DNA from: Phycisphaerae bacterium
Lineage (GTDB): Bacteria; Planctomycetota; Phycisphaerae; Sedimentisphaerales; Anaerobacaceae
DNA: 42,316 nt
Reading direction: 5' to 3'
Assembly (NCBI GenBank): GCA_041308485.1
Contig: JBFZBL010000092.1
Location: 1 to 42,316 of the forward strand
The notes under the pieces are model-generated. The model saw only the letters and a list, made by a program, of their open reading frames with translations, did not search any database and was not told the DNA's origin. The number at the start of each line of letters is the position of its first letter. Position 1 is the stretch's first letter. The position numbers and the translations under genes are program-made. Positions 1,848 to 37,369 of the stretch are shown one piece after another.

Positions 1848-1922
1848 AAAATCAAGCCACAGATTACACAGATTTCACTGTTTTTTTAGTTTTACCTTTT
1901 AGTGTATTCTTGGTAAAATTAT

Positions 1923-1957
1923 AAATCGAAAATAGAAAATAATAAATAGAAAATAAC
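1923..1957. repeat. heptanucleotide-periodic array, AAATNGA/AAATAAN units, intergenic
   Basis: AAATCGA AAATAGA AAATAAT AAATAGA AAATAAC, five 7-nt units directly 5' of tRNA-Gly(TCC). Confidence 0.7.
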
Positions 1958-2032: not shown

Positions 2033-2038
2033 TTTCCA

Positions 2039-2073
2039 GAGGACGGATGACAGAAGACAGATGACGGTTATGG
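2039..2073. repeat. heptanucleotide-periodic array, GANGACN units, intergenic
   Basis: GAGGACG GATGACA GAAGACA GATGACG GTTATGG, starting 7 nt after the tRNA-Gly 3' end. Confidence 0.7.
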
Positions 2074-7762: not shown

Positions 7763-9910
7763 TCACCTTCCTACGTAACCTGCTTCGGCGCAGAACAGCA
7801 GGATGTCCCTTCCCAATGGTGCGGCGTCGGATGAACCCGCCTGGCCTCCCTCGACGAGGACGGCGACCGCGATTATTCTTCCTTTACTGTCTTTGGCAAA
7901 GCCGCCAAACCAGGCGTGTTCGGGCTGTGTTGTTGAGCCGGTCTTGCCGTATAGCCGTATTCCCCGCGAAGAGAAATTTCCTAACGCCTGCGCAAATTCC
8001 CTGTTGGCGGTTCCGCCCGATTCTTCCACGACGGCGTGCATTCCCTCATAAACGGTTGCCAGTGTTACAGGGGAGATATTCAGGTTGACCGGCGCCGGTT
8101 TTGGCGCACAGGGGTCGGCTATAAGTCGGGGCGGGAGATAAATGCCGCCTCTGGCTAAGCAGGCCATCGCGTTCGCCACCTGTAAAGGTGTTGCCCTGAG
8201 GTTGCCCTGTCCAATTCCGAACCACCGTTCTTCGCCTGGCAGAAGTGCGGGCAATTGCTCAAAACTTGTAATCGTGTCTTTTGCGGGAGTGTTGGCGATT
8301 TGTCCCTGTACCTGTCTGAAATTTCTCGATGCTTGATGCTCGATACTCGATACTCGATTTTCGATGCTCGATGTGTGTTCGTCATTGTTATCGATTATCG
8401 AAGGAAGGGCGAGTCGGCCGTAGCCGAATCTAAAAAGCCAGCTTTGCAGGACGAGGGGGTCGAGACGGTCGGCCAGGTGTGAAAAATATATGTTGCAGCT
8501 TCCCTTTATGGCGTTGCGGGCGGTGTTCGACCATAAAGTATCATGTCCCACGTGGCTTCTTAAAAATATGAGGCAATTAGGCCAGCCCTGCGGCGCCCTG
8601 TGCGAAGGGCAGTTTATCACTTCGCCGGCGTTAATTTTGCCGGATTCCATTCCAGCGGTCAGTATCAGGGGTTTTATAACTGAGCCGGGCGGGTAATGCA
8701 TATTTATGGCACGATTGCGCAGCGGCTCGCAGGGGTCGCTGACGAGCGCGCCGTAGGTCTGCCTGACAAGGTTCAAATCGTAATCGGGCAGCGAGACGAG
8801 GGCGAGGATATCGCCTGAGCCGACGTCGATAACCACGGCGGCGGAAGGGGACTTGCAGATGTGATTCAGGGAGCAGTCGGTTATGCGCTGCTCAATTTTC
8901 TTTTGCAGCTCGATATCGATTGTCAGGCGGATGTCCTGGCCGAACTGCGCATCTGTTTGCCGGACGAGGTTTTTGTCTATGTCGAAGACGACCTCGCCAC
9001 GTTTACCGCGGAGAATCTGCTCGCAGACGTATTCGACGCCGTCTTCCCGTCCACAAAGCTCATCATCAAGGTAACTGACTAAACTGTCGTCGGCGAAGAG
9101 GTCTTTATCCTGCCGGCTTGGCGGGCCTACCCAGCCGATTGTCTGTGAGGCCGCAGAGCCGAAGGGATATACGCGCTGGCCCTTCGCTATGACCTCGACG
9201 CCGGTGACGTTGAGGAATTCAACTCTGGCGGCGAACACGGCGTCCTCCGATTTCAATTCTACGACGGGCTGTGTTTTTTTAAGCTCGGCGAGGTCGTCCA
9301 CTTTGTTTATCAGCAGAAGGCGGTCGCACGGGTCAGGGAATTTTTTTTCAAAATCGGCAATCGCCTCGGAGAGGGGGACGTTACTGAGATTGCGGTCATA
9401 TTTTTTCAATATATCGGCGCCGGGGGTGTTTCTGGCCCAGGCGAAAAACGTTCTGAGGTTCCAGATTTTGTCGTTTATTTTTTGAAGCCGAAGCACTACT
9501 TCCTCGCGTGACATGCCGAATTGCACGCATTTGCTGATTAGCAGGTCAAGGTCTTCCTGCCGGTCGGCGAATTCCTGCTGCAGGGGCGATATGTTGGCGT
9601 CGGGGTCTTTCGATTTGACCCGAAGAGACAGTGCCTGGAGGACGCGTTCGTCGAGAAATCGGCTTAGTTCATAGTTTATCGCCAGCCAGAACCTCGGCTC
9701 GTCGGCGGCGAGGACCTGTCCTTTTCTATCGAGAATTCTCCCCCGCATTGTTCTGACCTGCTGGAGGGAGCCCGCCTGAATGCGCAATTGCGCGACCTGT
9801 TCCCTGTAAAAGGAGGTCGAGAGCAGCTGCATATCCGCGAGTCGAAAGACGCATAGGCCGAGCAAAACGGCCCCTGCGATTACCAGAATGGTGATTCTTT
9901 TTTTATACAT
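7763..9910 (-). CDS. mrdA: penicillin-binding protein 2 (elongasome D,D-transpeptidase)
   Basis: 715 aa with an N-terminal TM and motifs S-V-I-K (PPGSVIKP), S-C-N (KGSCNIY) and K-T-G-S (YGKTGST). Directly downstream of mreB-mreC-mreD. Contains a low-complexity insert encoded by heptamer repeats. Confidence 0.85.
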   Translation of the reverse strand: MYKKRITILVIAGAVLLGLCVFRLADMQLLSTSFYREQVAQLRIQAGSLQQVRTMRGRILDRKGQVLAADEPRFWLAINYELSRFLDERVLQALSLRVKSKDPDANISPLQQEFADRQEDLDLLISKCVQFGMSREEVVLRLQKINDKIWNLRTFFAWARNTPGADILKKYDRNLSNVPLSEAIADFEKKFPDPCDRLLLINKVDDLAELKKTQPVVELKSEDAVFAARVEFLNVTGVEVIAKGQRVYPFGSAASQTIGWVGPPSRQDKDLFADDSLVSYLDDELCGREDGVEYVCEQILRGKRGEVVFDIDKNLVRQTDAQFGQDIRLTIDIELQKKIEQRITDCSLNHICKSPSAAVVIDVGSGDILALVSLPDYDLNLVRQTYGALVSDPCEPLRNRAINMHYPPGSVIKPLILTAGMESGKINAGEVINCPSHRAPQGWPNCLIFLRSHVGHDTLWSNTARNAIKGSCNIYFSHLADRLDPLVLQSWLFRFGYGRLALPSIIDNNDEHTSSIENRVSSIEHQASRNFRQVQGQIANTPAKDTITSFEQLPALLPGEERWFGIGQGNLRATPLQVANAMACLARGGIYLPPRLIADPCAPKPAPVNLNISPVTLATVYEGMHAVVEESGGTANREFAQALGNFSSRGIRLYGKTGSTTQPEHAWFGGFAKDSKGRIIAVAVLVEGGQAGSSDAAPLGRDILLFCAEAGYVGR
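8324..8401. repeat. heptanucleotide-periodic array inside mrdA: NNTCGAT x7, then TTATCGA x2
   Basis: TCTCGAT GCTTGAT GCTCGAT ACTCGAT ACTCGAT TTTCGAT GCTCGAT (8324-8372), and TTATCGA TTATCGA (8388-8401). This segment encodes IIDNNDEHTSSIENRVSSIEHQASRN. Confidence 0.85.
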
Positions 9911-13772: not shown

Positions 13773-14801
13773 TCACCGTCCTATATTATTGGCAGAAGTA
13801 TATTGTAAGGTCGCCTTAGCTGCGGCAAGCCTGGTAAACTGAAACTCGCTTTTTAGTAATTCCGGGAGGAAGTTTTTAAGGGTTGGCGTCCTGATTTGGC
13901 CTATTGCAAGGGCCGCCAGCGTCTGTATGCGTGCCCTTGTTTCATTGTCCTGTGCGCTGGCTATATCTTTTGTAAGGGCATTGATGATGACTTTTTCGCC
14001 CGCGGTATCGCCCAGGTTGCCAAGCTGTTCTGCCGCCACGAGACGTACCTCCGTCAGGTCGTCTTTGAGCATTGTTGCAATAGAGTCTTTTGCCTGGGGT
14101 GTTCCCAGCGCCCCCATTGCCCGGATGCCGCAAACCCGGTCATCGGCGTATGCGCTTATCAGCATTGCCCAGAGTTTTTGATAGATTTTGTTGTCGCCAA
14201 GCCGGGCAATGGCCTCAATCGAGCTTAATATGACTTTTTCATCGGAGGTGTTATCTCTCATGGTCTCGTAGAGTATGGGCAAAGCCCGCCTGGGCGATTC
14301 GCCTGATTTACCTAACAGGAAGGCGGCGTTTGCTCTGACACTTTGGTCGTTACTTTTTATGGATGTGTAGATAGTCGCAAGCCCGCTTTTGTAACCAAGT
14401 TTATAAGCAGCATAGGCGGCGGCGATTTTGACGTTTTCGTTATCGTCTTTGAGCAATCGGGTGATGTCGCCGCGTGCCTTAGAGTATCCGGTGTCACCTG
14501 TCGCGACTGCGGCTGCAAACTTAACCGGCACAGACTCGTCTTTGAGCAGCTGCTGTACTGCCGGCATAAACTTGTCTGCCTGGCTTGTCGGAACGGCGGC
14601 AGCCATTTCGATGGCATTGGTTCTGACCTGCGGGCTGCTATTAGCAAGGGCCTGCTGGATTATCTGTGTCGCCTGAGCTTCAAGTTCGCTGCTTACGGGG
14701 CCGCCGGCTGCGTTCTGCTTTACGGGACCGGTTTGGCAGCCGCAAAGAGCAATCAGCGAGAATATGAAACAGGTGAAAACGATTCTATTTTTTATCATCA
14801 T
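13773..14801 (-). CDS. HEAT/PBS-lyase-type repeat protein, probable lipoprotein
   Basis: Signal peptide ending SLIALCGC. Repeated helical units of about 31 aa follow (VRTNAIEMAA, VPVKFAAAVATG, VKIAAAYAAYKLG, VRANAAFLLGK, VRLVAAEQLGNLG, TRLAAAKA). Confidence 0.7.
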   Translation of the reverse strand: MMIKNRIVFTCFIFSLIALCGCQTGPVKQNAAGGPVSSELEAQATQIIQQALANSSPQVRTNAIEMAAAVPTSQADKFMPAVQQLLKDESVPVKFAAAVATGDTGYSKARGDITRLLKDDNENVKIAAAYAAYKLGYKSGLATIYTSIKSNDQSVRANAAFLLGKSGESPRRALPILYETMRDNTSDEKVILSSIEAIARLGDNKIYQKLWAMLISAYADDRVCGIRAMGALGTPQAKDSIATMLKDDLTEVRLVAAEQLGNLGDTAGEKVIINALTKDIASAQDNETRARIQTLAALAIGQIRTPTLKNFLPELLKSEFQFTRLAAAKATLQYTSANNIGR

Positions 14802-16575
14802 TTATTTTACTCCCTTTTTCGCCTTGGGTTCGTCGTTTAAGGAAGAATCGCTCAGCAATTTGCGCTATTATGATTACAACTACACTCAACTGACAAGCGA
14901 AATCCAGCAACTGGCCGTGTTTGCTGAAAAAAGTAGTCCTCGTGTCGATGGGTACGGTGTCCGCAAACCAGCCCTCAACGCCCTTGCGGTCGAATGCCTT
15001 TCGCGGCAGGTTTCCCGCGGCGTAGCCGTCCTTAATCTGGCCAAGCGTGTCAATCATACAACTGATTCCCGTGTTGACGCTTCGCAGCACGGCTAATCTG
15101 TTCTCTACCGCCCGAAATGCGCAAATCGCCGCGTGCTGTGAAAGCTCGGTTGCGGGCAGGACTTTGCCGTCTTCGAATCGCACAAACCACCCGTCATTGC
15201 TTATATTCACGAGCCAGTCGATTCGCCTGCTGCCTTTTTCATCCAGCGCAAATTTTCTCGCCATAAAAGGCACCGCATCCTCGTAGCAAATCATCACGCT
15301 GAATTTGTATGTGCGGTTGGCATCCTGCGGCTGCATTTCAAAGGCCGTATATTCCGTGCCCGGGTCAATCGTATAATCGAAATCGTAAGGCGACATTTTC
15401 AGGAACAGCTTGTGAATCAGCGGGATATTGGAGAAGGGCAGCATTTCGCCGAAGGGCACGAGATATATTTTGGAGTATTTTTGAGGCGACTGATTGCCGT
15501 CGGGCTTATACAAAAAAGCGGAGTTGAATTTTTGCGCCATGCGAATGTTGCCTGCGTCGTATCGAGGCGTGCCATCGTATGCCCCGACAAGAACATGCGC
15601 ACCTTTTTTGGCGTGCCCGCGGATGGTTTCATCGAAGGTTTTATAATAATGGTCATCAACCAGGAGGCGCAAGACCTGCCGGTTCAGTATTGCCTGCACC
15701 ATCGTTTCGGGCCAGACGACAAGTTTGGCCCCCGCAGTGATACACTGGTCGCTTTGCACCAGCAGCTCATCGAAAATTTGTTTTTCCGCGGCAAAGGATT
15801 TTTTGACGGATATGGGTATGTTCGTCTGAACCGCTGCAATCATAGGCCCGGGCGTGACTGTCGTATCGGACTGATTTATTCGCCAGTGTCCATACACGAG
15901 TGTGCCAACAACTACTGCGACTGTTACGATAATTGAGAATTTAGAATTAAGAATTAAGAAAGGCAGCCGAAGGCTCATTTGTTTCTTTTCTGAATTCTCA
16001 GTTTTCAATTCTAAATTTTTGGCACAAATTATTAATTGTGCAATTAACCCATTTACCATTCCCACCACAAACGAGACGCCCGCCGCGCCGAATATGTCGG
16101 CTATCTGGATTAAGGTGGTGTTGGTGAATTGGCTGTGAGCGAGATAGTTCCAGTAAAAGCCGCCCAGGAAAAGCCCCTGCATCTGCTCGATGCCTACGAC
16201 TGAGATGGGGACGGCGATAAAAAGCGGTATCTTTTTGTTTTTGCACCACCGCAAAGATAACACCAGTATAGGCCAGAGGAGGGCGGTATAAAGGCAAAAT
16301 GCGAGCCAGCCAATAACCGTTACGAAGCTCATCCAGTATATATTGCCGAGCCAGTAGCAGGTCGAGACGGCAAATGCGGTAAGATATAATCTCGATACTC
16401 GATGCTTGATACTCGATTCTCGTGATTCGGATAAGCAGACAAGAATAAAAGGCACATACGCCACCCACGCCAGCGGCCACCATCCAATCGGCTGCTGCGC
16501 CAGTGTCAGCATAACCGCCGTCGCGGCAAAAGCAGCTAAAAGACGCAAAATCCCTTTCGTGTTTTGAATACTCAA
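14785..16575 (-). CDS. lnt: apolipoprotein N-acyltransferase
   Basis: Polytopic N-terminal half and a C-terminal CN-hydrolase domain with LVVWPE (Glu), KIYLVPFGE (Lys) and VMICYE (Cys). TTG start at 16575 overlaps the methyltransferase stop by 4 nt; a later start cannot be excluded. Two repeat-encoded inserts lie in the membrane half. Confidence 0.85.
   Translation of the reverse strand: MSIQNTKGILRLLAAFAATAVMLTLAQQPIGWWPLAWVAYVPFILVCLSESRESSIKHRVSRLYLTAFAVSTCYWLGNIYWMSFVTVIGWLAFCLYTALLWPILVLSLRWCKNKKIPLFIAVPISVVGIEQMQGLFLGGFYWNYLAHSQFTNTTLIQIADIFGAAGVSFVVGMVNGLIAQLIICAKNLELKTENSEKKQMSLRLPFLILNSKFSIIVTVAVVVGTLVYGHWRINQSDTTVTPGPMIAAVQTNIPISVKKSFAAEKQIFDELLVQSDQCITAGAKLVVWPETMVQAILNRQVLRLLVDDHYYKTFDETIRGHAKKGAHVLVGAYDGTPRYDAGNIRMAQKFNSAFLYKPDGNQSPQKYSKIYLVPFGEMLPFSNIPLIHKLFLKMSPYDFDYTIDPGTEYTAFEMQPQDANRTYKFSVMICYEDAVPFMARKFALDEKGSRRIDWLVNISNDGWFVRFEDGKVLPATELSQHAAICAFRAVENRLAVLRSVNTGISCMIDTLGQIKDGYAAGNLPRKAFDRKGVEGWFADTVPIDTRTTFFSKHGQLLDFACQLSVVVIIIAQIAERFFLKRRTQGEKGSKINDDKK
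15930..16016. repeat. 87-nt inverted pair of heptamer arrays inside lnt (AATTNAG x4, 31-nt spacer, CTNAATT x4)
   Basis: AATTGAG AATTTAG AATTAAG AATTAAG (15930-15957) and CTGAATT CTCAGTT TTCAATT CTAAATT (15989-16016). The arms are 21/28 complementary. The spacer holds a small GCC-GAA-GGC hairpin. 87 nt equals 29 codons, encoding KNLELKTENSEKKQMSLRLPFLILNSKFS. Confidence 0.8.
16390..16431. repeat. heptanucleotide-periodic array inside lnt, NNTCGAT family
   Basis: TCTCGAT ACTCGAT GCTTGAT ACTCGAT TCTCGTG ATTCGGA. Same unit family and same strand orientation as the mrdA array. Encodes SESRESSIKHRVS. Confidence 0.8.
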
Positions 16576-17522
16576 TCCGTTATGCCCTTCAAAGCGGTCG
16601 CTATCTCCGCGGAGATATACTGTTTTTGATTGTTCATTCGGATGGCAAACTGGCCCGTGAACAGTTCCAGAAGGTCTTTGTTCGACAGGAGCTGTTTGGG
16701 TGAATATCCGATGTCCGGTATGAGCCGTTTTAATTCACGTATTTCGACGATATTCAGTTTGTGTTCTTTTTCCATTCTCGCTTGAGTATCGAGCTGAGCG
16801 AGACGCTGATTTGCTTTTTTAACATAATCCGCGGAGATTTCTATACCGACGTAGTTTCTGTGCAGTTTTTTTGCCGCTGCTGCCGTTGTACCTGAGCCGA
16901 CGAATGGGTCAAGAACACAGTCTCCCGCATTTGAGCTTGCCGCGATGATTCTCATAAGCAATTGTTCAGGCATCTGGCAGGGGTGCCAGCCGGTGCGTTC
17001 TTTGAATGTTCCGCACACCCGCGGGTCCTCCCATACGTCGTCGGGAATCTTGCCCGCGGGGTTGGCGCGTTTATCCGCATAAATCAACTGCCGGTCCGAT
17101 GGAACTCGCACTGCGAAATCGTTGAAAGCGAAATTTTTACTGTCATTGACAAAGTAAAATATATGCGTGTGTGAACGGGCGAACTTGTCTTTTGTCTGCT
17201 GGCCAAAGGTATAGTGCCATATTATCCAGTTGCGCATCACCAAACCCAGTTCATCTGCGATAACCTTTACATTCGCGGCGTAATCATCTCCTATGGCGAT
17301 GTAAAACGAACCGGCGGGCTTGAGCACTTTTTTGCAGGCGGCAATCCAGTCTTTTGTCCACGCGATGTAGTTATTTCGTTCGACTTTATCGTGGTATTTA
17401 TCGTATTTGTACCCGATATTGAAGGGGGGGTCTGCGAATATCAAGTCCACGAAGGGCTGGGCGATTTTGCCCAGTGTTTCGATACAGTCGCCGCAAATTA
17501 TCTTATTCAATAATTCCTGCAT
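16572..17522 (-). CDS. beta-class N6-adenine/N4-cytosine DNA methyltransferase, no cognate nuclease in the window
   Basis: Motif IV IFADPPFNIGY comes N-terminal to motif I VLDPFVGSGTTAAAA, the beta-class permutation of the N6_N4_Mtase family. A tail of about 80 aa follows the catalytic core. Confidence 0.85.
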   Translation of the reverse strand: MQELLNKIICGDCIETLGKIAQPFVDLIFADPPFNIGYKYDKYHDKVERNNYIAWTKDWIAACKKVLKPAGSFYIAIGDDYAANVKVIADELGLVMRNWIIWHYTFGQQTKDKFARSHTHIFYFVNDSKNFAFNDFAVRVPSDRQLIYADKRANPAGKIPDDVWEDPRVCGTFKERTGWHPCQMPEQLLMRIIAASSNAGDCVLDPFVGSGTTAAAAKKLHRNYVGIEISADYVKKANQRLAQLDTQARMEKEHKLNIVEIRELKRLIPDIGYSPKQLLSNKDLLELFTGQFAIRMNNQKQYISAEIATALKGITD

Positions 17523-17532
17523 ACCGGCATAT

Positions 17533-17574
17533 TTTAAGCTTAAAACTTAAAACTAAAAGCTAAAAACTTATGAC
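17533..17574. repeat. heptanucleotide-periodic array, TTAAAAC/TAAAAGC units, intergenic
   Basis: TTTAAGC TTAAAAC TTAAAAC TAAAAGC TAAAAAC TTATGAC, directly upstream of the methyltransferase start codon. Confidence 0.75.
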
Positions 17575-17686
17575 ATTATCGGCCTCAGATGAAAATTTGT
17601 GAAGTAAGGCCGGGAAAATCGTGAAAAAACGTCGTTAGAATTTTGGAATTGGCCATTTTAGTTTATAATTTATATGAGGGGACAAT

Positions 17687-18193
17687 ATGTTTCGCAGCAA
17701 CTCAAAGCATAAAACTTTACTCGCCATATTTAAGTCGAGTCGCAGCTCAAAATCGAAGGCCGGGATGACGCTGGTGGAGGTGATGATTGCCGTCGCGGTT
17801 GTCATCGTCGCCGCATTAGGCACGCTGTGTTATGAGTATCTTTGCATAGACCACGTCCGAGTCGCACGGGCTGAGTTGACTGCGACCCGCATCGGCCAGC
17901 TTCTCCTTGAGGACTGGAAAAGCGAAGGCGGCACTCTCGATTACAATCCCGAAGATCTGCATATGGGTTTCGAGCTGCCTGATGATTTGCCCACGAATTG
18001 TGTTACGGTCGTTGATGGTCTGCCTCTGCACATCAGTATGACTCATTCTGATGTTGACGCCGACGCATTTACGGGCGTCAAGCTCAGCGAGATAAGCGTT
18101 GTTGTCAGTTGGAAAAGGTATTTCGGAAACGGCGCACCGGAGGGTGATGACCCGCGGGTAGTTCTTACTACTTATGTCAGGCGTGACCAGTGA
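17687..18193 (+). CDS. prepilin-type N-terminal cleavage/methylation domain protein (pseudopilin-like)
   Basis: KAG/MTLVEVMIAVAVVIVAALG matches the G-[FM]-[ST]-L-x-E class III signal with a hydrophobic helix. SD GAGGGG lies upstream of the ATG. Confidence 0.75.
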   Translation: MFRSNSKHKTLLAIFKSSRSSKSKAGMTLVEVMIAVAVVIVAALGTLCYEYLCIDHVRVARAELTATRIGQLLLEDWKSEGGTLDYNPEDLHMGFELPDDLPTNCVTVVDGLPLHISMTHSDVDADAFTGVKLSEISVVVSWKRYFGNGAPEGDDPRVVLTTYVRRDQ

Positions 18194-18884: not shown

Positions 18885-18919
18885 TATTAAGAATTGAGAA
18901 TTTGGGAATTTTAGAATGG
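18885..18919. repeat. heptanucleotide-periodic array, AATTNAG family, running into a start codon
   Basis: TATTAAG AATTGAG AATTTGG GAATTTT AGAATGG. The ATG of the 580-aa gene (18916) lies in the last unit. Confidence 0.7.
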
Positions 18920-20690: not shown

Positions 20691-21347
20691 TTACTTTTTG
20701 CCTGCGGGCTGCGGCGGGCGAATGATGAATTGCTCGGTGAATATCATGCCCGACAGGTAATCGGTGAAAGTGACCTTAACGGTCAGAGGTTTATCGAACT
20801 TGTCAACGATCCCGGCCGCGTCAAAACTCAGCCGGTAGCTGCTCGAAAACATCCCGCCAAGCCATAGCTTCTTAATCTCATTCGGCTCAAGCTGCCACTG
20901 CGCCAAGCGGGCTTCATTTTCCTTTTTGTTCAGGTCCCACAGTTGAACCTCAATGGCTCCTCCCGCCTTTACGGCATCGCCAGTTTCGTCTATCGGCTCG
21001 ACGTAAACGACCAGCTTTTTCTTTCCGGCTGCAGTCGGGGTCTTGTCCTCTTCATAAAAGCTTGTGAACCTGCCGATTTTGACTGTTTTGATGTGGTATA
21101 TCGCGTCGGCCCTCTTGTCGGGGGGCAGTGTCGAAAGCGATTCCGCCTGTTTTTTGAGCCGGTCGTTTTCCGCTTTGATTTGTTCGAGCTGGTTTTGAAG
21201 GTCAGTTTTTTGCGAGGTAAGCTGCTGAGTCTGCTTTGAGGCTGCCGGCTTTCCACCTATCCGGGTCTCGCATCCAGGCGCGAATGCCAGAGATATGAAT
21301 ACACCAACGAACAATGAGCTACGAACCAAGAACATCATAATTCTCAA
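20691..21347 (-). CDS. hypothetical lipoprotein with a short coiled-coil
   Basis: Signal peptide with lipobox LAFAPGC. Next comes QQLTSQKTDLQNQLEQIKAENDRLKKQAESL, then a beta-rich domain. Starts 9 nt after the clpP stop. Confidence 0.65.
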   Translation of the reverse strand: MRIMMFLVRSSLFVGVFISLAFAPGCETRIGGKPAASKQTQQLTSQKTDLQNQLEQIKAENDRLKKQAESLSTLPPDKRADAIYHIKTVKIGRFTSFYEEDKTPTAAGKKKLVVYVEPIDETGDAVKAGGAIEVQLWDLNKKENEARLAQWQLEPNEIKKLWLGGMFSSSYRLSFDAAGIVDKFDKPLTVKVTFTDYLSGMIFTEQFIIRPPQPAGKK

Positions 21348-21359
21348 TTCTCAAATTAA
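21339..21359. repeat. AATTGAG-family heptamer units (read on the minus strand) between the clpP stop and the lipoprotein start
   Basis: The plus strand reads AATTCTC AATTCTC AAATTAA. The minus strand reads TTAATTT GAGAATT GAGAATT followed by ATG. Confidence 0.6.
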
Positions 21360-25680: not shown

Positions 25681-25771
25681 TTGGAAATTTGCGGTTTGGT
25701 AATTTGAATTTGTTTAGGATTTAGGGTTTAGTGCTTAGGATTTTGAACTACACGCTGCACGCTGTCCGCTG
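25681..25771. repeat. 91-nt phase-locked heptamer array made of three unit families
   Basis: Thirteen consecutive 7-nt units in one register. They read TTGGAAA TTTGCGG TTTGGTA ATTTGAA TTTGTTT, then AGGATTT AGGGTTT AGTGCTT AGGATTT, then TGAACTA, then CACGCTG CACGCTG TCCGCTG. A 14-nt duplication TGAGTTTATCGAAG / TGAGTACAATCGAG lies just upstream at 25603-25630. Confidence 0.8.
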
Positions 25772-25919
25772 CTTTATGTCAATTTGGGTAACTTGCCCTC
25801 CATTCGACACACACAAAAACGAGGGGCAAGTAGGGTCAAGTAGGGGCAACTAAAAACTTCCTTATAATAGCATTAGTATTTCTTGTTGAAAAATAGGCAA
25901 TTGTGATTTTTTTGGGGGC

Positions 25920-26816: not shown

Positions 26817-27323
26817 ATGACCGAGGACGTTGTCAATGCCAGGCAGTTCAATCTTTTGGACGAAAATGGCAAGGTCCGCGCCCGTCTGGGGATGCAGAAC
26901 GGGCCGAAGTTAGTTTTTTTCGACGAGGATGGAAAGAATCGTGCCGAATTGACCGTGTCAAAGGATGGGCCGAGGTTGGACTTTAGCGACGAGAATGGCA
27001 AACTCCGCGCCTATCTGCGTGTGTCAAATGACGGGCCGGTGTTGCTATTTGGCGACGAGAACAGCAAGCCCTGCGCCTATCTGCGCGTGCCAAAGGACGG
27101 GCCGAGGTTGGCCCTGTTCGACGCGAGTGGAAAGCCCCGCGCCTATCTGCGCGTGTCAAAGGAGGGGCCTGTGTTGGAACTGGGCGACGAGAAAGGACTA
27201 CGCGCCGGTCTTGGGGCCGCCCAAGTTACTTCAAAGGATGGAGTTGTTGTTACATATCCCGAATCTTCCCTGGTTCTGCTTGATCCAGACGGCAAGGTGC
27301 AATGGCAGGCCTTTGTCCGGTAG
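26817..27323 (+). CDS. hypothetical protein built from tandem 22-residue repeats (D-E-x-G-K-x-R-A-x-L-x-V-x-x-D-G-P-x-L-x-L-x)
   Basis: Repeat-initial Asp residues fall at positions 15, 36, 58, 80, 102 and 124, a period of 21-22 aa. SD GGAAAGGAG lies upstream. No signal peptide. Confidence 0.75.
   Translation: MTEDVVNARQFNLLDENGKVRARLGMQNGPKLVFFDEDGKNRAELTVSKDGPRLDFSDENGKLRAYLRVSNDGPVLLFGDENSKPCAYLRVPKDGPRLALFDASGKPRAYLRVSKEGPVLELGDEKGLRAGLGAAQVTSKDGVVVTYPESSLVLLDPDGKVQWQAFVR
26853..27221 (+). repeat. 66-nt tandem coding repeat, 5-6 copies
   Basis: The DNA motif GCGCCTATCTGCG(T/C)GTG(T/C)CAAA recurs with a 66-nt period (near 27005, 27071 and 27137). The protein-level repeat is listed above. 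Confidence 0.8.
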
Positions 27324-35234: not shown

Positions 35235-35933
35235 ATGCTCAGATTTTTGAGGAAATTTCGCAAAAGTTTCAAAACAGCATGCCTGACCGCGGCTCTGGCA
35301 ACATGCTGGCAGGTAGGGCAGCCGGCAAAAGCTGACTGGGGTGACTGGAATGAGGTTACTTTTAGGCTAACCGGAACGGTCACACCAACTCAACACAATG
35401 TCTCAAATTTGTATCTTCTCTATGGTTTGAATAATTCGTACGTACGAGAATTTTCTTATATAAGTCTCGGAAATTTCCCAGCCGGGGTCATTAGTAACTT
35501 ATCCATAGATATGACAGTGCCATATGATGAAAGCATCTTTGATAGTGATGACAAAAATGTGTATTGGGAAGCTGTAGGCCTTTATGGAGATATCAGCGGC
35601 GGGTACGACGACAAAAAAAATGGTGTGACATTAGGGATAAATGCCGCTGTAGGTGACCCATGGAGTTCACATACTTGGCGTGATGAAGGAGAGGTATTCA
35701 GCCGGCTTATAGATAACCAGGATTCTCATCAATGGGATAGTGGTTTTCATCCCTGGTATCCCATTGATTTCCAATATCATTCTTTCAATCTTACAATTAA
35801 CTTATTTGATTTTTCAAATGCCAGCTACAACGGGCAGGTTCAGTTAAATTTAGAGGTTGTACCTGAGCCGGTAACAATTATTCTGTTCGGGACAGGCGGA
35901 TTGATAGTTGCTGCCTTCCGCCGGCGGAGGTAG
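35235..35933 (+). CDS. PEP-CTERM sorting-domain protein, paralog 1
   Basis: Signal peptide MLRFLRKFRKSFKTACLTAALATCWQVGQPAKA. Conserved core AVGLYGDISGG...NGVTLG. C-terminal VPEPVTIILFGTGGLIVAAFRRRR (PEP motif, TM, Arg cluster). SD GGAG upstream. Confidence 0.85.
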   Translation: MLRFLRKFRKSFKTACLTAALATCWQVGQPAKADWGDWNEVTFRLTGTVTPTQHNVSNLYLLYGLNNSYVREFSYISLGNFPAGVISNLSIDMTVPYDESIFDSDDKNVYWEAVGLYGDISGGYDDKKNGVTLGINAAVGDPWSSHTWRDEGEVFSRLIDNQDSHQWDSGFHPWYPIDFQYHSFNLTINLFDFSNASYNGQVQLNLEVVPEPVTIILFGTGGLIVAAFRRRR

Positions 35934-35968
35934 CAATTATTGCTTTTTTTTGACAGAGGAGAAAAAAG

Positions 35969-36643
35969 GTGCTCAAGTTTCTGAGAAAGTTTCGAAAGAA
36001 GTTCAGGACGGCTTGCCTTACAGCAACGCTGGCAACCTGCTGGCAGGTGGGCGAGGCGGCAAAGGCAGATACGCCAAACTGGGGGGATGATATTACTATT
36101 AAATTTTCAGGAACTGTATCCCCGACGGTTAAAGACATATCCCATTTATTTCTTGTTTACGGAACAGGATATTCCTTCATTAATTTTGGTCCATGGAATA
36201 TAAAGCTCGGTGATTTCCCCGCAGGGCAGAGCATTTCTTTCTCAGTACAGGGGCCGGCAAGTTACGATTCTGATTTGTTTTGGATCGTTGCGGGTCTTTA
36301 TGGTGATATAAGCAGCGGCAGGTACATCGAAGGAGTTAATGGTGTTACTTTGGGGTTGGAGCCTGGTTCCACCATCGATGGCTGGATCTGGGACTGGAAA
36401 CTGACAGAGCAGGATGCATTTGATTACCTTTTAAATGATTCGCCGGGAAACGCTTTTTTGATATCGGCAATGCGGGAAGAGGTAGGCCTGGAGCTTACCA
36501 ACACAAGTAATTTGTTTAATTTCTCTGGTCTGACTTATAACGGACAAATCCAAATTCAAACTGAAATTGTTCCTGAGCCGGTAAGCATAATCTTGTTCGG
36601 GACAGGCGGATTGATAGTTACTCGCTTGCGCCGGCGGACATAG
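35969..36643 (+). CDS. PEP-CTERM sorting-domain protein, paralog 2
   Basis: GTG start after GAGGAGAAAAAAG. Same signal peptide family. C-terminal VPEPVSIILFGTGGLIVTRLRRRT. Confidence 0.85.
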   Translation: MLKFLRKFRKKFRTACLTATLATCWQVGEAAKADTPNWGDDITIKFSGTVSPTVKDISHLFLVYGTGYSFINFGPWNIKLGDFPAGQSISFSVQGPASYDSDLFWIVAGLYGDISSGRYIEGVNGVTLGLEPGSTIDGWIWDWKLTEQDAFDYLLNDSPGNAFLISAMREEVGLELTNTSNLFNFSGLTYNGQIQIQTEIVPEPVSIILFGTGGLIVTRLRRRT

Positions 36644-36676
36644 TGATTTTGCTGTTTTTGAGAGCGGAGAAAAAAG

Positions 36677-37369
36677 ATGCTCAAGTTTCTGAGAAAGTTT
36701 CGAAAGAAATTCAGGACGGCCTGTCTTACGGCAGCATTAGCAACCTGCTGGCAGGTAGGTCAGGCAGCAAAGGCGGATACGCCCAACTGGGGAGATGAGG
36801 TTACTCTTAAATTTACCGGGACAGTTTCACCTTCGACAAATGACTTGTCGCACCTGTTTCTTATCTATGGAACGGGTTACTCCGGTTTGACTTGGGGACC
36901 TTGGGTCGTAAAACTCGGCGACATTCCGGCCGGACAAGATGGCTCTTTTTCAGTGCAGGGGCCTGCGCTTTATCATGAAAGCTTATTTTGGGCTGTCGCA
37001 GGTCTTTATGGTGATGTCAGCGGCGGTCAATATATAGCTGGCACCAATGGTGTTACATTAGGCGTCGTTGGCGCAGTGGGTGACACATGGGCTTATCACT
37101 CTTATTGGGTCAGTGAAGAAGAAATGTTTGGCCATCTTCTAAATGACAACACAGCGGCATTGGCGAACGATGGCAACCTTCTTAGCTGGCCGCATATCGA
37201 GTGGTATTGCGGCCTTGAAACCAGCACATCGAGCGACTTGTTTGATTTTTCGCAGGCCAGTAATAACGGGCAGATGGAGATGACATCCCGGATTGTCCCT
37301 GAGCCGGTAAGCATTATCTTGTTCGGGACAGGCGGATTGATAGTTGCTGCCTTGCGCCGGCGGAGGTAG
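36677..37369 (+). CDS. PEP-CTERM sorting-domain protein, paralog 3
   Basis: ATG start after GGAGAAAAAAG. Same signal peptide family. C-terminal VPEPVSIILFGTGGLIVAALRRRR. Confidence 0.85.
   Translation: MLKFLRKFRKKFRTACLTAALATCWQVGQAAKADTPNWGDEVTLKFTGTVSPSTNDLSHLFLIYGTGYSGLTWGPWVVKLGDIPAGQDGSFSVQGPALYHESLFWAVAGLYGDVSGGQYIAGTNGVTLGVVGAVGDTWAYHSYWVSEEEMFGHLLNDNTAALANDGNLLSWPHIEWYCGLETSTSSDLFDFSQASNNGQMEMTSRIVPEPVSIILFGTGGLIVAALRRRR

What the first reader, a model, noticed from the sequence alone, without database searches (positions are those of the whole stretch)
15930..16016. 87-nt inverted pair of AATTNAG heptamer arrays (potential long hairpin) embedded in lnt
Four AATTNAG units, a 31-nt spacer with its own GCC-GAA-GGC mini-hairpin, then four CTNAATT units. 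The arms are 21/28 complementary. The total is 87 nt, exactly 29 codons, so Lnt stays open and gains KNLELKTENSEKKQMSLRLPFLILNSKFS. The shape resembles a MITE or REP-like palindromic element, but it is built from 7-nt units and sits inside an essential envelope gene. It could also form a strong mRNA structure in the middle of the gene.
Basis: partly seen in the sequence, partly recalled or inferred. Interest (0 to 1): 0.65.

Follow-up and report, generated by a model that had tools for sequence, protein, structure and literature searches.

The report
Palindromic heptamer repeat translated inside lnt
An 87-base palindrome made of 7-base repeat units sits in frame inside the lipoprotein-maturation gene lnt of a peat/sediment planctomycete; it is one copy of a 7-base repeat class that is abundant across this bacterial order and repeatedly rebuilds the same protein loops, not a stand-alone regulatory hairpin.

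Summary
At 15931-16017 there are four AATTNAG units, a 31-nt centre and four CTNAATT units. This is 87 nt, or 29 codons (Lnt residues 187-215).

It is not unique to this site. Period-7 arrays are about 30-fold enriched over shuffles in 1.29 Mb (this window and 80 related loci). lnt carries a second array (16391-16422), and the nearby PBP2 gene carries a third (8325-8373).

The TM6-TM7 loop of Lnt is a hot spot. 19 of 93 distinct loop sequences are heptamer-built, from at least eight different unit families, and several are inverted pairs. Near-identical lnt genes (93% nt) carry entirely different loop alleles.

The hairpin is weak here (RNA z -1.4 to -2.3). It is not preserved in all orthologues and shows no compensatory changes. 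Two arm mismatches are forced, because a perfect palindrome would create stop codons.

The arms stay 82-96% identical between genes only 58-73% identical, while the centre is hypervariable. What maintains the arms is unexplained.

Best reading: an STRR-like heptanucleotide microsatellite palindrome, translated as an extension of a tolerant loop. It is a new variant of a known kind and of moderate interest.

The parts
14785..16575 (-). lnt (apolipoprotein N-acyltransferase), 596-aa ORF that hosts the element
   Evidence: ORF. Pfam LNT_N (residues 20-177) and CN_hydrolase (246-514). PDB Lnt chains match; WPE, K..LVPFGE and ICYE align to the E. coli catalytic motifs. Metatranscriptome contigs are identical over 15083-15325 and 16373-16601.
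15990..16017 (-). 5' (left) arm on the coding strand: AATTTAG AATTGAA AACTGAG AATTCAG, encoding NLELKTENS(E)
   Evidence: The AF2 model continues the TM6 helix through it (H164-194).
15959..15989 (-). 31-nt centre, encoding (E)KKQMSLRLP; hypervariable among orthologues
   Evidence: Centre columns are invariant at 0.25/0.12/0.00 of codon positions 1/2/3, against 0.66/0.77/0.26 in the rest of the gene. Centre length also varies. pLDDT is below 50 for residues 193-209.
15931..15958 (-). 3' (right) arm on the coding strand: CTTAATT CTTAATT CTAAATT CTCAATT, encoding (F)LILNSKFSI, leading into TM7
   Evidence: It is the most conserved part: 23-27 of 28 nt identical to orthologues whose genes are 58-88% identical. 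AF2 helix 204-239.
16391..16422 (-). Second in-frame heptamer array in lnt (CTCGATA x4.6 on the + strand; peptide ESRESSIKHRVSR) in the TM2-TM3 loop, +7 aa (21 nt) over the 8-aa baseline
   Evidence: Present in an exact RNA contig.
8325..8403 (-). In-frame CTCGATG x7 array plus a short inverted TATCGAT TATCGAA, inside the PBP2-type transpeptidase gene 7763..9910. It replaces an unrelated ~70-nt segment seen in relatives.
18885..18917 (+). Intergenic AATTNAG-family array that fills the spacer between two pilin-like ORFs
   Evidence: conserved in L086/L087.
21336..21356 (-). AATTGAG-family array immediately upstream of the ORF 20691..21347 start
17539..17570 (.). Intergenic CTTAAAA x4.6 array between the methyltransferase gene and the next gene
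25713..25772 (.). Two adjacent intergenic heptamer arrays (TTTAGGA x4.4, CACGCTG x3)
2037..2065 (.). CAGAAGA-family array directly after tRNA-Gly (1962-2032). An A-rich period-7/21 array at 1915-1955 lies before the tRNA.

Best explanation
The element is a palindromic heptanucleotide microsatellite: two inverted arrays of one 7-nt unit family around a short centre. It belongs to an STRR-like class of period-7 arrays that is abundant in Sedimentisphaerales genomes.

Shown:
- It is translated in frame. Three 7-nt units make one 7-residue peptide period.
- It forms a 29-residue addition between TM6 and TM7 of Lnt. The charged left arm prolongs TM6, the hydrophobic right arm prolongs TM7, and the centre is the turn.
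- Because 87 nt is an odd number of codons, the two arms are read as codon-for-codon antisense partners. The variable 'N' position of the units is set so that the TAA/TGA antisense partners of TTA/TCA never arise.

Inferred:
- Arrays arise and change by replication slippage and template switching. A snap-back (intra-strand) switch would make the inverted arm. Microhomology-seeded copying from other arrays of the same family would explain why families recur.
- Selection keeps only stop-free, 3n-length versions in loops that tolerate extra residues.
- Homologous recombination among close relatives shuffles whole loop alleles.
- The RNA/DNA hairpin is a by-product, not the selected function.
For: Lineage-wide class:
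- In 1.29 Mb (window plus 80 related loci), arrays of at least 2.8 copies number 118 at period 7, against 0-28 at periods 5-12 and 3.6 in block shuffles.
- Unit families recur between loci: 410 close pairs against 163 +/- 11 in composition-matched shuffles.
- 32 of 118 arrays have an inverted partner within 160 nt.

Hot spot and tolerance:
- 19 of 93 distinct TM6-7 loop DNAs have a strong period-7 run, against 2 at any other period and 1 of 303 control segments.
- The unit families there include AATTNAG, GTTCATT, CAGAAGA, CGTCGTG/ACGCAAT, ACGCTTC, CTCGATR, CGTCCAT and CGAATAT. Several are inverted pairs.
- The loop aligns to a gap between TM6 and TM7 of E. coli Lnt.
- The AF2 model gives helix, low-confidence turn, helix.

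Unit-wise change: loop alleles of 84, 126 and 147 nt differ by multiples of 21 nt.

Local proto-repeat expansion: 'ELILDAR' is encoded by 2-3 CTYGATR units and is expanded to 4-5 units in L029, L093 and L098.

Frame logic: a perfect palindrome built from either arm contains two stops. Exactly those two pairs are unpaired in all 11 orthologues.

Hairpin not selected:
- z ranges from -4.75 to about 0 among orthologues.
- There are 0 compensatory pairs, and all 500 shuffles do at least as well.
- There is no Rfam match.

Recombination:
- L001 and L002 lnt are 93% identical overall, and 97-100% in many windows, but 25-27% at the loop.
- Loop alleles are interleaved on the tree.
- Centre types are discordant with gene relatedness.

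No mobile-element genes were found among the 20 ORFs scanned between 537 and 31497, which carry housekeeping domains: mreB, mreC, PBPs, clpP, tig.
Against: - The arms are much better conserved than a neutral microsatellite should be. The right arm is 27/28 identical to L100 although the genes are 58% nt and 48% aa identical, and 25-26/28 at 66-73% gene identity. L100's nearest relatives lack the element. This needs homogenisation, selection on the DNA, or transfer, and none of these is demonstrated.
- The arrays are imperfect, which should damp slippage.
- No unit-number polymorphism could be observed in reads, because coverage is about 3x and only contigs are kept.
- Within the close clade, the excess conservation of synonymous sites in the arms is not significant (4/10 vs 61/262, p = 0.26).
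- Slippage and snap-back are inferred from anatomy only.
Confidence: 0.6

Rival explanations
1. It is a small non-autonomous mobile element (MITE/REPIN-like) whose terminal inverted repeats are heptamer arrays. It inserts with site preference and has entered this lnt loop more than once.
For: - Palindromic anatomy with conserved arms and a variable centre.
- The same arm sequence sits at the same site in L100, whose closest relatives lack it.
- Presence and absence are interleaved among 83-91% identical genes.
- L062 has heptamer arms around an 85-nt structured core, z -5.1.
- A Logan contig carries the same arm with a different flank.
- REP-like elements do land inside heptamer arrays, as in L092.
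Against: - No target-site duplication was seen at the boundaries I inspected.
- No conserved core: the centre is the least conserved part.
- No second full-length copy in about 1.6 Mb of related sequence; other AATT arrays are single-armed with unrelated flanks.
- 86 of 118 arrays have no inverted partner.
- The arrays replace sequence rather than simply insert.
- No transposase was found among the ORFs scanned near lnt (537-31497).
Confidence: 0.2
2. The inverted arms form a functional hairpin in the lnt mRNA (processing site, translational pause, stability element) or a DNA cruciform, and selection on that structure keeps the arms.
For: - Some orthologues fold far better than shuffles: L085 z -4.7, L089 z -4.75, L084 z -3.8.
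- L089 is within two substitutions of the maximum complementarity that an open frame allows: 24/28 with two forced mismatches.
- The arms are conserved beyond the gene average at large divergence.
Against: - In the window, z is only -1.4 to -2.3.
- L003 and L005 fold no better than shuffles, and L007 and L100 have one arm only.
- 0 of 32 pairs show a compensatory change, variation only breaks pairs, and all 500 shuffles do as well.
- No Rfam family matches.
- Close relatives function with a completely different, non-palindromic loop allele.
- The RNA contigs give no sign of processing, but the data are thin.
Confidence: 0.07
3. The encoded peptide is the selected feature: a helical-hairpin extension of TM6/TM7 on the cytoplasmic face of Lnt with a function of its own. 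The DNA repeat is only how it arose.
For: - The peptides NLEFRIENSEK and F(L/S)ILNS(K/Q)FSI recur in 27 of 113 homologues down to about 54% identity.
- Length is strictly 49 aa in the close clade.
- A helical prediction flanks a disordered turn.
- The N positions are tuned to keep the frame open.
Against: - Genes 93% identical carry an unrelated 28-aa loop, and most of the order has a different 33-aa loop.
- Between distant copies the arms are more alike in DNA (0.82-0.96) than expected from their amino-acid identity. This is the opposite of what protein-level selection predicts.
- Many unrelated repeat-derived peptides occupy the same loop.
Confidence: 0.1
4. It is a contingency (phase-variation) locus: gain or loss of one 7-nt unit shifts the frame and switches Lnt off and on.
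For: A unit length not divisible by 3 inside a coding region is the classical set-up. Heptanucleotide contingency repeats exist in other bacteria (paper titles returned by search).
Against: - All orthologues recovered are in frame, and their length differences are multiples of 21 nt.
- The units are imperfect.
- The host is a conserved lipoprotein-maturation gene in a conserved housekeeping neighbourhood.
- No frameshifted contig was seen.
Confidence: 0.03

Closest known systems
Heptameric SSRs of Xanthomonas (GGGAATC) and Nostoc (GGGGAYT), including convergent inverted pairs (Rehm et al. 2015, PMC4692102)
   Same: - Tandem 7-nt units with one degenerate position.
- A strong genome-wide excess of period 7 over neighbouring periods.
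- Copies at conserved positions whose length and sequence vary between relatives.
- Frequent pairs of arrays on opposite strands close together (70-75 pairs per Xanthomonas genome).
   Different: - Those arrays are G-rich, quadruplex-prone and 89-93% intergenic. Here there are many unit families, mostly not G-rich.
- A large share here lies inside long ORFs: 72 of 118 well inside stop-to-stop ORFs of at least 150 aa.
- They recur in frame at the same loops of conserved enzymes.
- The lineage here is Planctomycetota.
Cyanobacterial STRR heptanucleotide repeats (Mazel et al. 1990) and the small dispersed repeats nested in heptamer arrays (Elhai et al. 2008, PMC2527708). Both are cited from memory; neither paper was readable here.
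   Same: - Several heptamer families are dispersed through a genome and shared among related genomes.
- Other small repeat elements are found inserted inside heptamer arrays, as in L092.
   Different: STRRs are described as intergenic. In-frame palindromic pairs in essential genes are not, to my knowledge, part of that description.
Long SSRs of 5-11 nt units in large non-pathogen genomes (Mrazek et al. 2007, as summarised in PMC4692102)
   Same: Period-7 over-representation. The proposed cause is polymerase slippage, with a general tendency of such arrays to expand rather than a specific function.
   Different: That work does not explain inverted pairing, recurrence of a few unit families, or conservation of arms across deep divergence.
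REPINs / REP elements and MITEs (Bertels & Rainey 2011, PMC3116915)
   Same: About 90 nt in size, with two inverted repeats around a short spacer that can form a hairpin. High copy number of the repeat unit.
   Different: - The arms are tandem heptamers, not 20-40-nt imperfect palindromes with a GTAG/CGTC head.
- The element is intragenic and translated.
- There is no conserved core.
- No RAYT or transposase is known.
Tandem repeats of Borg elements that create new disordered protein regions (Schoelmerich et al. 2023, PMC9879509; abstract seen)
   Same: Rapidly evolving, independently arising tandem nucleotide repeats that are kept in frame and add low-complexity segments to proteins.
   Different: According to my recollection of the paper, Borg coding repeats have unit lengths divisible by 3. 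Here the unit is 7 nt, so three units make a 7-residue period, and the arrays come as palindromes.

Membership tests
Heptanucleotide SSR / STRR-like arrays | Head-to-tail tandem copies of a 7-nt unit | tested here: met
   TRF finds period 7 with 4.3 copies on each arm. The units are read directly from the sequence.
Heptanucleotide SSR / STRR-like arrays | Genome-wide excess of period 7 over other periods and over chance | tested here: met
   118 arrays at period 7 against 0-28 at periods 5-12 and 3.6 in shuffles. The window alone has 7 of 11 arrays at period 7.
Heptanucleotide SSR / STRR-like arrays | The same unit families dispersed at unrelated loci and shared among related genomes | tested here: met
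   The AATTNAG family is found at 18885 and 21336 and in L007, L048, L100/L106 and an RNA contig. CGAGTAT, CAGAAGA and ACGCAAT recur in many loci. The pair statistic is 410 against 163.
Heptanucleotide SSR / STRR-like arrays | Length change in whole units between relatives or within populations (slippage) | tested here: inconclusive
   Between species, loop alleles differ by 21, 42 and 63 nt. Within the population this could not be tested: about 3x contigs only.
Heptanucleotide SSR / STRR-like arrays | Predominantly intergenic location (as described for Xanthomonas and Nostoc) | tested here: not met
   72 of 118 arrays lie well inside stop-to-stop ORFs of at least 150 aa. Arrays are still depleted relative to the 90% of bases in such ORFs. 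Some of these are probably upstream of the true start codons.
MITE | Terminal inverted repeats | tested here: met
   Inverted arms of 28-40 nt at 75-83% complementarity.
MITE | Target-site duplication flanking the element | tested here: not met
   No direct repeat was seen at the boundaries when filled and alternative alleles were inspected by eye. The flanks themselves differ between alleles.
MITE | Multiple full-length copies with a homologous internal sequence at unrelated sites | tested here: not met
   There are none in the window or in about 1.6 Mb of related loci. The centre is hypervariable even between orthologues. Whole genomes were not available.
MITE | A related autonomous element or transposase in the genome | not testable with these tools
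   Only 42 kb of this genome is held. Pfam found no transposase among the 20 ORFs scanned between 537 and 31497.
REP / REPIN | 20-40-nt imperfect palindromic REP unit with a conserved GTAG/CGTC head, extragenic, arranged as an inverted doublet | tested here: not met
   The arms are tandem heptamers with no internal palindrome or GTAG/CGTC head, and the element is intragenic. Only the doublet-hairpin shape is shared.
REP / REPIN | Cognate RAYT (HUH tyrosine transposase) gene | not testable with these tools
   No whole genome is available.
Structured cis-regulatory RNA | Match to a curated RNA family | tested here: not met
   Rfam 15 gives no match at E <= 1 in 15000-17800.
Structured cis-regulatory RNA | Folding energy clearly better than shuffles, and preserved in orthologues | tested here: inconclusive
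   The window gives z -1.4 (111 nt) and -2.3 (93 nt). Orthologues range from -4.75 to +0.4.
Structured cis-regulatory RNA | Compensatory base changes that maintain pairs | tested here: not met
   0 of 32 pairs show changes on both sides in 11 orthologues. 15 pairs vary only by breaking. The observed values do not exceed the shuffles. Power is low because the arms vary little.
Apolipoprotein N-acyltransferase (Lnt), the host gene | LNT_N membrane domain plus a CN_hydrolase domain with the E-K-C triad motifs | tested here: met
   Both Pfam domains score above their cut-offs. WPE, K-x-x-LVPFGE and ICYE align with E. coli Lnt.

The most novel reading that the evidence does not exclude
Sedimentisphaerales (Phycisphaerae) may carry an actively maintained class of palindromic heptamer-array elements. 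A dedicated process, such as a protein that recognises the 7-nt unit or a templated copying mechanism, would write and homogenise a small set of unit families. It would repeatedly place them in the same surface loops of envelope-biogenesis enzymes (Lnt TM2-3 and TM6-7 loops, a PBP2 loop), producing cassette-like hypervariable protein segments. The evidence that does not exclude this: the arms are 82-96% identical between genes that are 58-73% identical, the centres are hypervariable, the same arm occurs at the same site in a lineage whose nearest relatives lack it, and at least eight unit families alternate at one site.
Probability: 0.2. Interest if true: 0.75.

Novelty: new variant of a known kind. 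Interest (0 to 1): 0.5.

Why it matters
Heptanucleotide arrays have been known in cyanobacteria since 1990 and in Xanthomonas since 2015. They remain without an accepted origin or function, and they are described as essentially intergenic.

Here the same kind of sequence is found in an unrelated phylum. It is translated inside conserved, normally invariant envelope enzymes. It appears at recurrent hot spots, with filled, alternative and baseline alleles all available among close relatives.

This gives a natural series for asking several questions:
- How do such arrays are born, invert and turn over?
- How much foreign low-complexity peptide can a membrane enzyme loop tolerate?
- Is the 7-nt unit maintained by slippage alone, or by something that recognises it?

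There is also a practical point. These arrays will cause local misalignment, spurious 'insertions' and assembly breaks in Planctomycetota MAGs.

Tried and rejected
- Rfam scan of 15000-17800: no match.
- DNA read layout: only about 3x Logan contigs. It confirms the sequence but cannot show unit-number polymorphism.
- RNA layout: lnt is transcribed, but nothing covers 15961-16372 and no ends or joints were seen.
- Covariation on 11 orthologous 87-nt elements: no signal, with low power.
- Synonymous-site test within the close clade: the arms have more invariant codons than the rest of the gene (4/10 vs 61/262), but this is not significant, p = 0.26.
- AF2 model of Lnt: only moderate quality (pLDDT 61.6), so I used it for secondary structure around the insert only and ran no fold search.
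- Single-linkage clustering of unit families chained almost everything together and was uninformative. I used the pair statistic instead.
- My first regex-anchored loop extraction missed many loci. I replaced it with an alignment-based extraction.
- Literature: Elhai 2008, Mrazek 2007 and Mazel 1990 are not held. A search for heptamer repeats in Sedimentisphaerales found nothing relevant.
- I rejected the centre's GCC-GAA-GGC mini-hairpin as a feature, because it is not conserved in orthologues.
- I rejected an assembly artefact, because of the independent assemblies and the RNA contig.
- I considered a link to the adjacent N6/N4 DNA methyltransferase (the units contain AATT and GAATTC). The synteny is conserved, but I had no way to test the link, so I did not pursue it.
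Full report
**What is there.**
The + strand at 15931-16017 reads four AATTNAG units, a 31-nt centre and four CTNAATT units, 87 nt in all. This is one base to the right of the coordinates given. In full register the arms are 22/28 complementary. The repeat tool reports 40-nt arms at 75% and 23-nt sub-arms at 83%. The two-unit pattern occurs 9 times in the window against 0.34 expected, and 0 of 100 shuffles reach 9.

The element lies in a 596-aa ORF on the - strand (14785..16575) with LNT_N and CN_hydrolase domains. The ORF aligns with solved Lnt structures, including the WPE, K-LVPFGE and ICYE motifs. The element begins on a codon boundary and encodes residues 187-215, NLELKTENSEKKQMSLRLPFLILNSKFSI. 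An independent assembly of a public soil metagenome run reproduces 15896-16130 exactly. Metatranscriptome contigs are identical to other parts of the gene.

**It is not a singleton.**
TRF finds many period-7 arrays in the window. One is a second array inside lnt (16391-16422, peptide ESRESSIKHRVSR). Another is inside a PBP2-type transpeptidase gene (8325-8373, peptide TSSIENRVSSIEHQAS). Intergenic arrays lie at 17539, 18885, 21336 and 25713, and on both sides of a tRNA-Gly.

Names attached to the closest Lnt homologues place the organism in Sedimentisphaerales (Planctomycetota, Phycisphaerae). In 1.29 Mb (the window plus 80 related genome loci) there are 118 arrays of at least 2.8 copies at period 7. 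Periods 5-12 have 0-28 each, and block shuffles give 3.6. A limited set of unit families recurs in many genomes: CGAGTAT/CTCGATA, CAGAAGA, AATTCTA, ACGCAAT, AAACTCA and CGAGCCA (pair statistic 410 against 163 +/- 11). About a quarter of the arrays (32 of 118) have an inverted partner within 160 nt.

**The site is a hot spot.**
Between the conserved anchors ..NGLx and YGxWR.., most of the order has a 33-aa loop (..KNIFKISNLIKTA..). The window's clade has 49 aa, built from the AATTNAG palindrome. An alternative allele has 28 aa (VRRPWFVVRN) and is itself made of degenerate GTTCNTN heptamers; these are clean GTTCATT x5 in L008.

Other lineages have different sequences at the same place:
- CAGAAGA x6 directly abutting TCCTCTG x5 (L017, L097).
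- CGTCGTG x3 with GCAATAC x4 (L023).
- ACGCTTC (L079, L080).
- CGTCCAT (L048).
- CGAATAT arms around an 85-nt core (L062).
- Expanded CTCGATR (L029, L093, L098).
- Translations of REP-like elements.

Of 93 distinct loop DNAs, 19 contain a strong period-7 run and 2 a run of any other period. Control segments of the same genes give 1 of 303. The TM2-TM3 loop behaves the same way: an 8-aa baseline, with inserts of +7 to +25 aa made of CTCGATA, CTCGTGA/CGAGCGA or other elements. A loop of PBP2 ending ..RQA does too.

The Lnt insert falls in a gap between TM6 and TM7 of E. coli Lnt. From the known E. coli topology, both Lnt loops are cytoplasmic; this is an inference. A moderate-quality AF2 model (pLDDT 61.6) predicts helix 164-194, a low-confidence turn at 195-203 and helix 204-239. 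The two arms therefore prolong TM6 and TM7.

**Turnover.**
Lnt genes that are 93% identical in DNA (97-100% in many 60-nt windows) are only 25-27% identical across the loop (L001 vs L002). The AATT and short alleles are interleaved on a tree of the loop-masked protein. Centre types do not follow gene relatedness. Homologous recombination of loop alleles among close relatives is the simplest explanation.

The palindrome occurs in 27 of 113 close homologues, down to about 54% identity. It appears with one or both arms and with centres of different length. Allele lengths of 84, 126 and 147 nt differ by multiples of 21 nt, which is three units.

One case is harder to explain. L100 is 48% aa and 58% nt identical to the window's Lnt. 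It carries CTCAATTCTTAATTCTAAATTCTCAATT (27/28 identical to the window's arm) plus AATTCAGAAAA at the same site. Its nearest relatives have baseline or other loops.

**Reading-frame logic.**
Because the element is 29 codons long, codon i and codon 30-i are antisense partners. A perfect palindrome built from either arm would contain TAA and TGA, the antisense of TTA and TCA. Exactly those two pairs (alignment columns 5-83 and 26-62) are unpaired in all 11 orthologues. The best-preserved copy, L089, has 24/28 complementarity. That is two substitutions away from the maximum an open frame allows. The 'N' of the units is therefore largely explained by stop avoidance. A pure AATTTAG, AATTAAG or AATTGAG array would close the frame within three units, as the sequence shows directly.

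**Is the hairpin functional?**
- In the window, the RNA MFE is -18.4 kcal/mol with z -1.40, and 21 of 200 shuffles fold as well. The 93-nt core gives z -2.3. DNA gives z -2.57.
- Orthologues range from z -4.75 (L089) and -4.7 (L085) to -0.8 (L003, L005), and to about 0 for the one-armed copies.
- On 11 orthologous elements, 80.7% of cells pair, but no pair shows a compensatory change. Variation only breaks pairs, and all 500 shuffles do as well.
- No Rfam family matches.

I conclude that pairing is a consequence of the palindromic origin, not demonstrably a selected feature. The test has little power, because the arms hardly vary.

**What remains unexplained.**
The arms are more conserved than the gene: 26/28 on each arm at 73% gene identity (L111), 25/28 and 24/28 at 66% (L110), and 27/28 at 58% (L100). 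The centre is far less conserved than the gene. Within the close clade, the excess of invariant synonymous codons in the arms is not significant (p = 0.26).

Several things would each produce conserved arms with a free centre:
- Concerted evolution of units by slippage or gene conversion, including with other arrays of the family.
- Selection on the DNA.
- Terminal repeats of a mobile element.

I could not separate these.

**Most likely mechanism.**
Shown:
- The element is a translated, in-frame, palindromic member of a lineage-wide heptanucleotide array class.
- It sits at a loop that tolerates, and repeatedly acquires, such arrays.

Inferred:
- Arrays arise by slippage from proto-repeats. 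The 'ELILDAR' codons are 2-3 CTYGATR units that are expanded in three lineages.
- The inverted arm arises by a snap-back template switch, which leaves the local sequence as the unconstrained centre.
- The same families recur because existing arrays serve as ectopic templates.
- Selection passes only stop-free 3n versions in tolerant loops.
- Recombination spreads alleles.

**Comparison with known systems.**
The closest described systems are the heptameric SSRs of Xanthomonas and Nostoc. They show the same period-7 excess, a degenerate unit position and many convergent inverted pairs, but they are G-rich and 89-93% intergenic (PMC4692102). Cyanobacterial STRRs are also close; I cite them from memory because the papers were not readable here. 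It is not a REP/REPIN or a MITE by their defining features (see the membership table). I found no description of heptamer arrays in Planctomycetota.

**Verdict.**
This is a new variant of a known kind and of moderate interest. Its MITE/REP and 'strong mRNA structure' readings are only partly supported.

Noticed in passing
window 8325-8403 (gene 7763..9910, - strand): A PBP2-type transpeptidase carries an in-frame CTCGATG x7 array plus a short inverted partner, inside its transpeptidase domain at about residues 513-540. The same site (ending ..[DN][FL]RQ[AV]) holds other heptamer arrays in L014, L015, L033, L036, L046, L050, L052, L056 (13 units) and L057. L001, L003, L004 and L023 have an unrelated ~70-nt segment there.
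   Followed up: partly
window 16391-16422: A second heptamer array (CTCGATA family) lies in lnt, in the TM2-TM3 loop. It adds +21 nt over the 8-aa baseline. Relatives carry CTCGTGA/CGAGCGA inverted arrays or a 'TFTAENAESAEKK' element at the same site. The array is present in an exact metatranscriptome contig.
   Followed up: partly
L029, L056, L093, L098 and many other loci, Lnt end of TM6: The conserved peptide ELILDAR is encoded by TTGATAC TYGATGC TCG, which is 2-3 units of the CTYGATR family. It is expanded to 4-5 units in three lineages. This looks like a coding proto-repeat seeding an array.
   Followed up: partly
L092 4598-4705; L024, L035, L052; L030: Other small repeat elements occupy the same Lnt loop. 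A REP-like GCCTGTCCCGAGCGAGGTCGAGGGG sits in the middle of a GTTCATT array (L092). Translations such as SMGGSLKSEGFGDG and HPFDKLRAGSE are typical of dispersed repeats.
   Followed up: no
window 1915-1955 and 2037-2065, around tRNA-Gly(tcc) 1962-2032: The tRNA gene is bracketed by an A-rich period-7/21 array upstream and a CAGAAGA-family array immediately downstream.
   Followed up: no
window 21336-21356 and the start of ORF 20691..21347: An AATTGAG array lies just upstream of a gene whose N-terminus (MFLVRSSLFV) is itself encoded by GTTCNTN heptamers. That is the same family that makes the 'short' Lnt loop allele.
   Followed up: no
run X4, 188-nt Logan contig laid on window 15988-16020; run X21 RNA contig on 15927-15960: Other molecules in the same samples carry AATT-family arms with unrelated flanks. 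One has a centre containing GCCGAAGG, like the window's centre. They could be another allele, an orthologue or a second locus.
   Followed up: no
window 26954-27193 (ORF 26817..27323): A 66/132-nt tandem repeat encodes about 22-residue repeats (..DENGKxRAYLRVSKDGPxL..) in a small protein with no family assigned here.
   Followed up: no
window 16572-17522 and L110-L114: An N6/N4 DNA methyltransferase gene overlaps the lnt start by 4 nt. The order methyltransferase-lnt-HEAT-repeat protein is conserved in all orthologous loci fetched. The heptamer units contain AATT and GAATTC, but no link was tested.
   Followed up: no
window 35235-37369: Three tandem paralogous ORFs of about 230 aa share a 12-nt repeat motif (AAGTTTCTGAAA at 35975 and 37410).
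   Followed up: no
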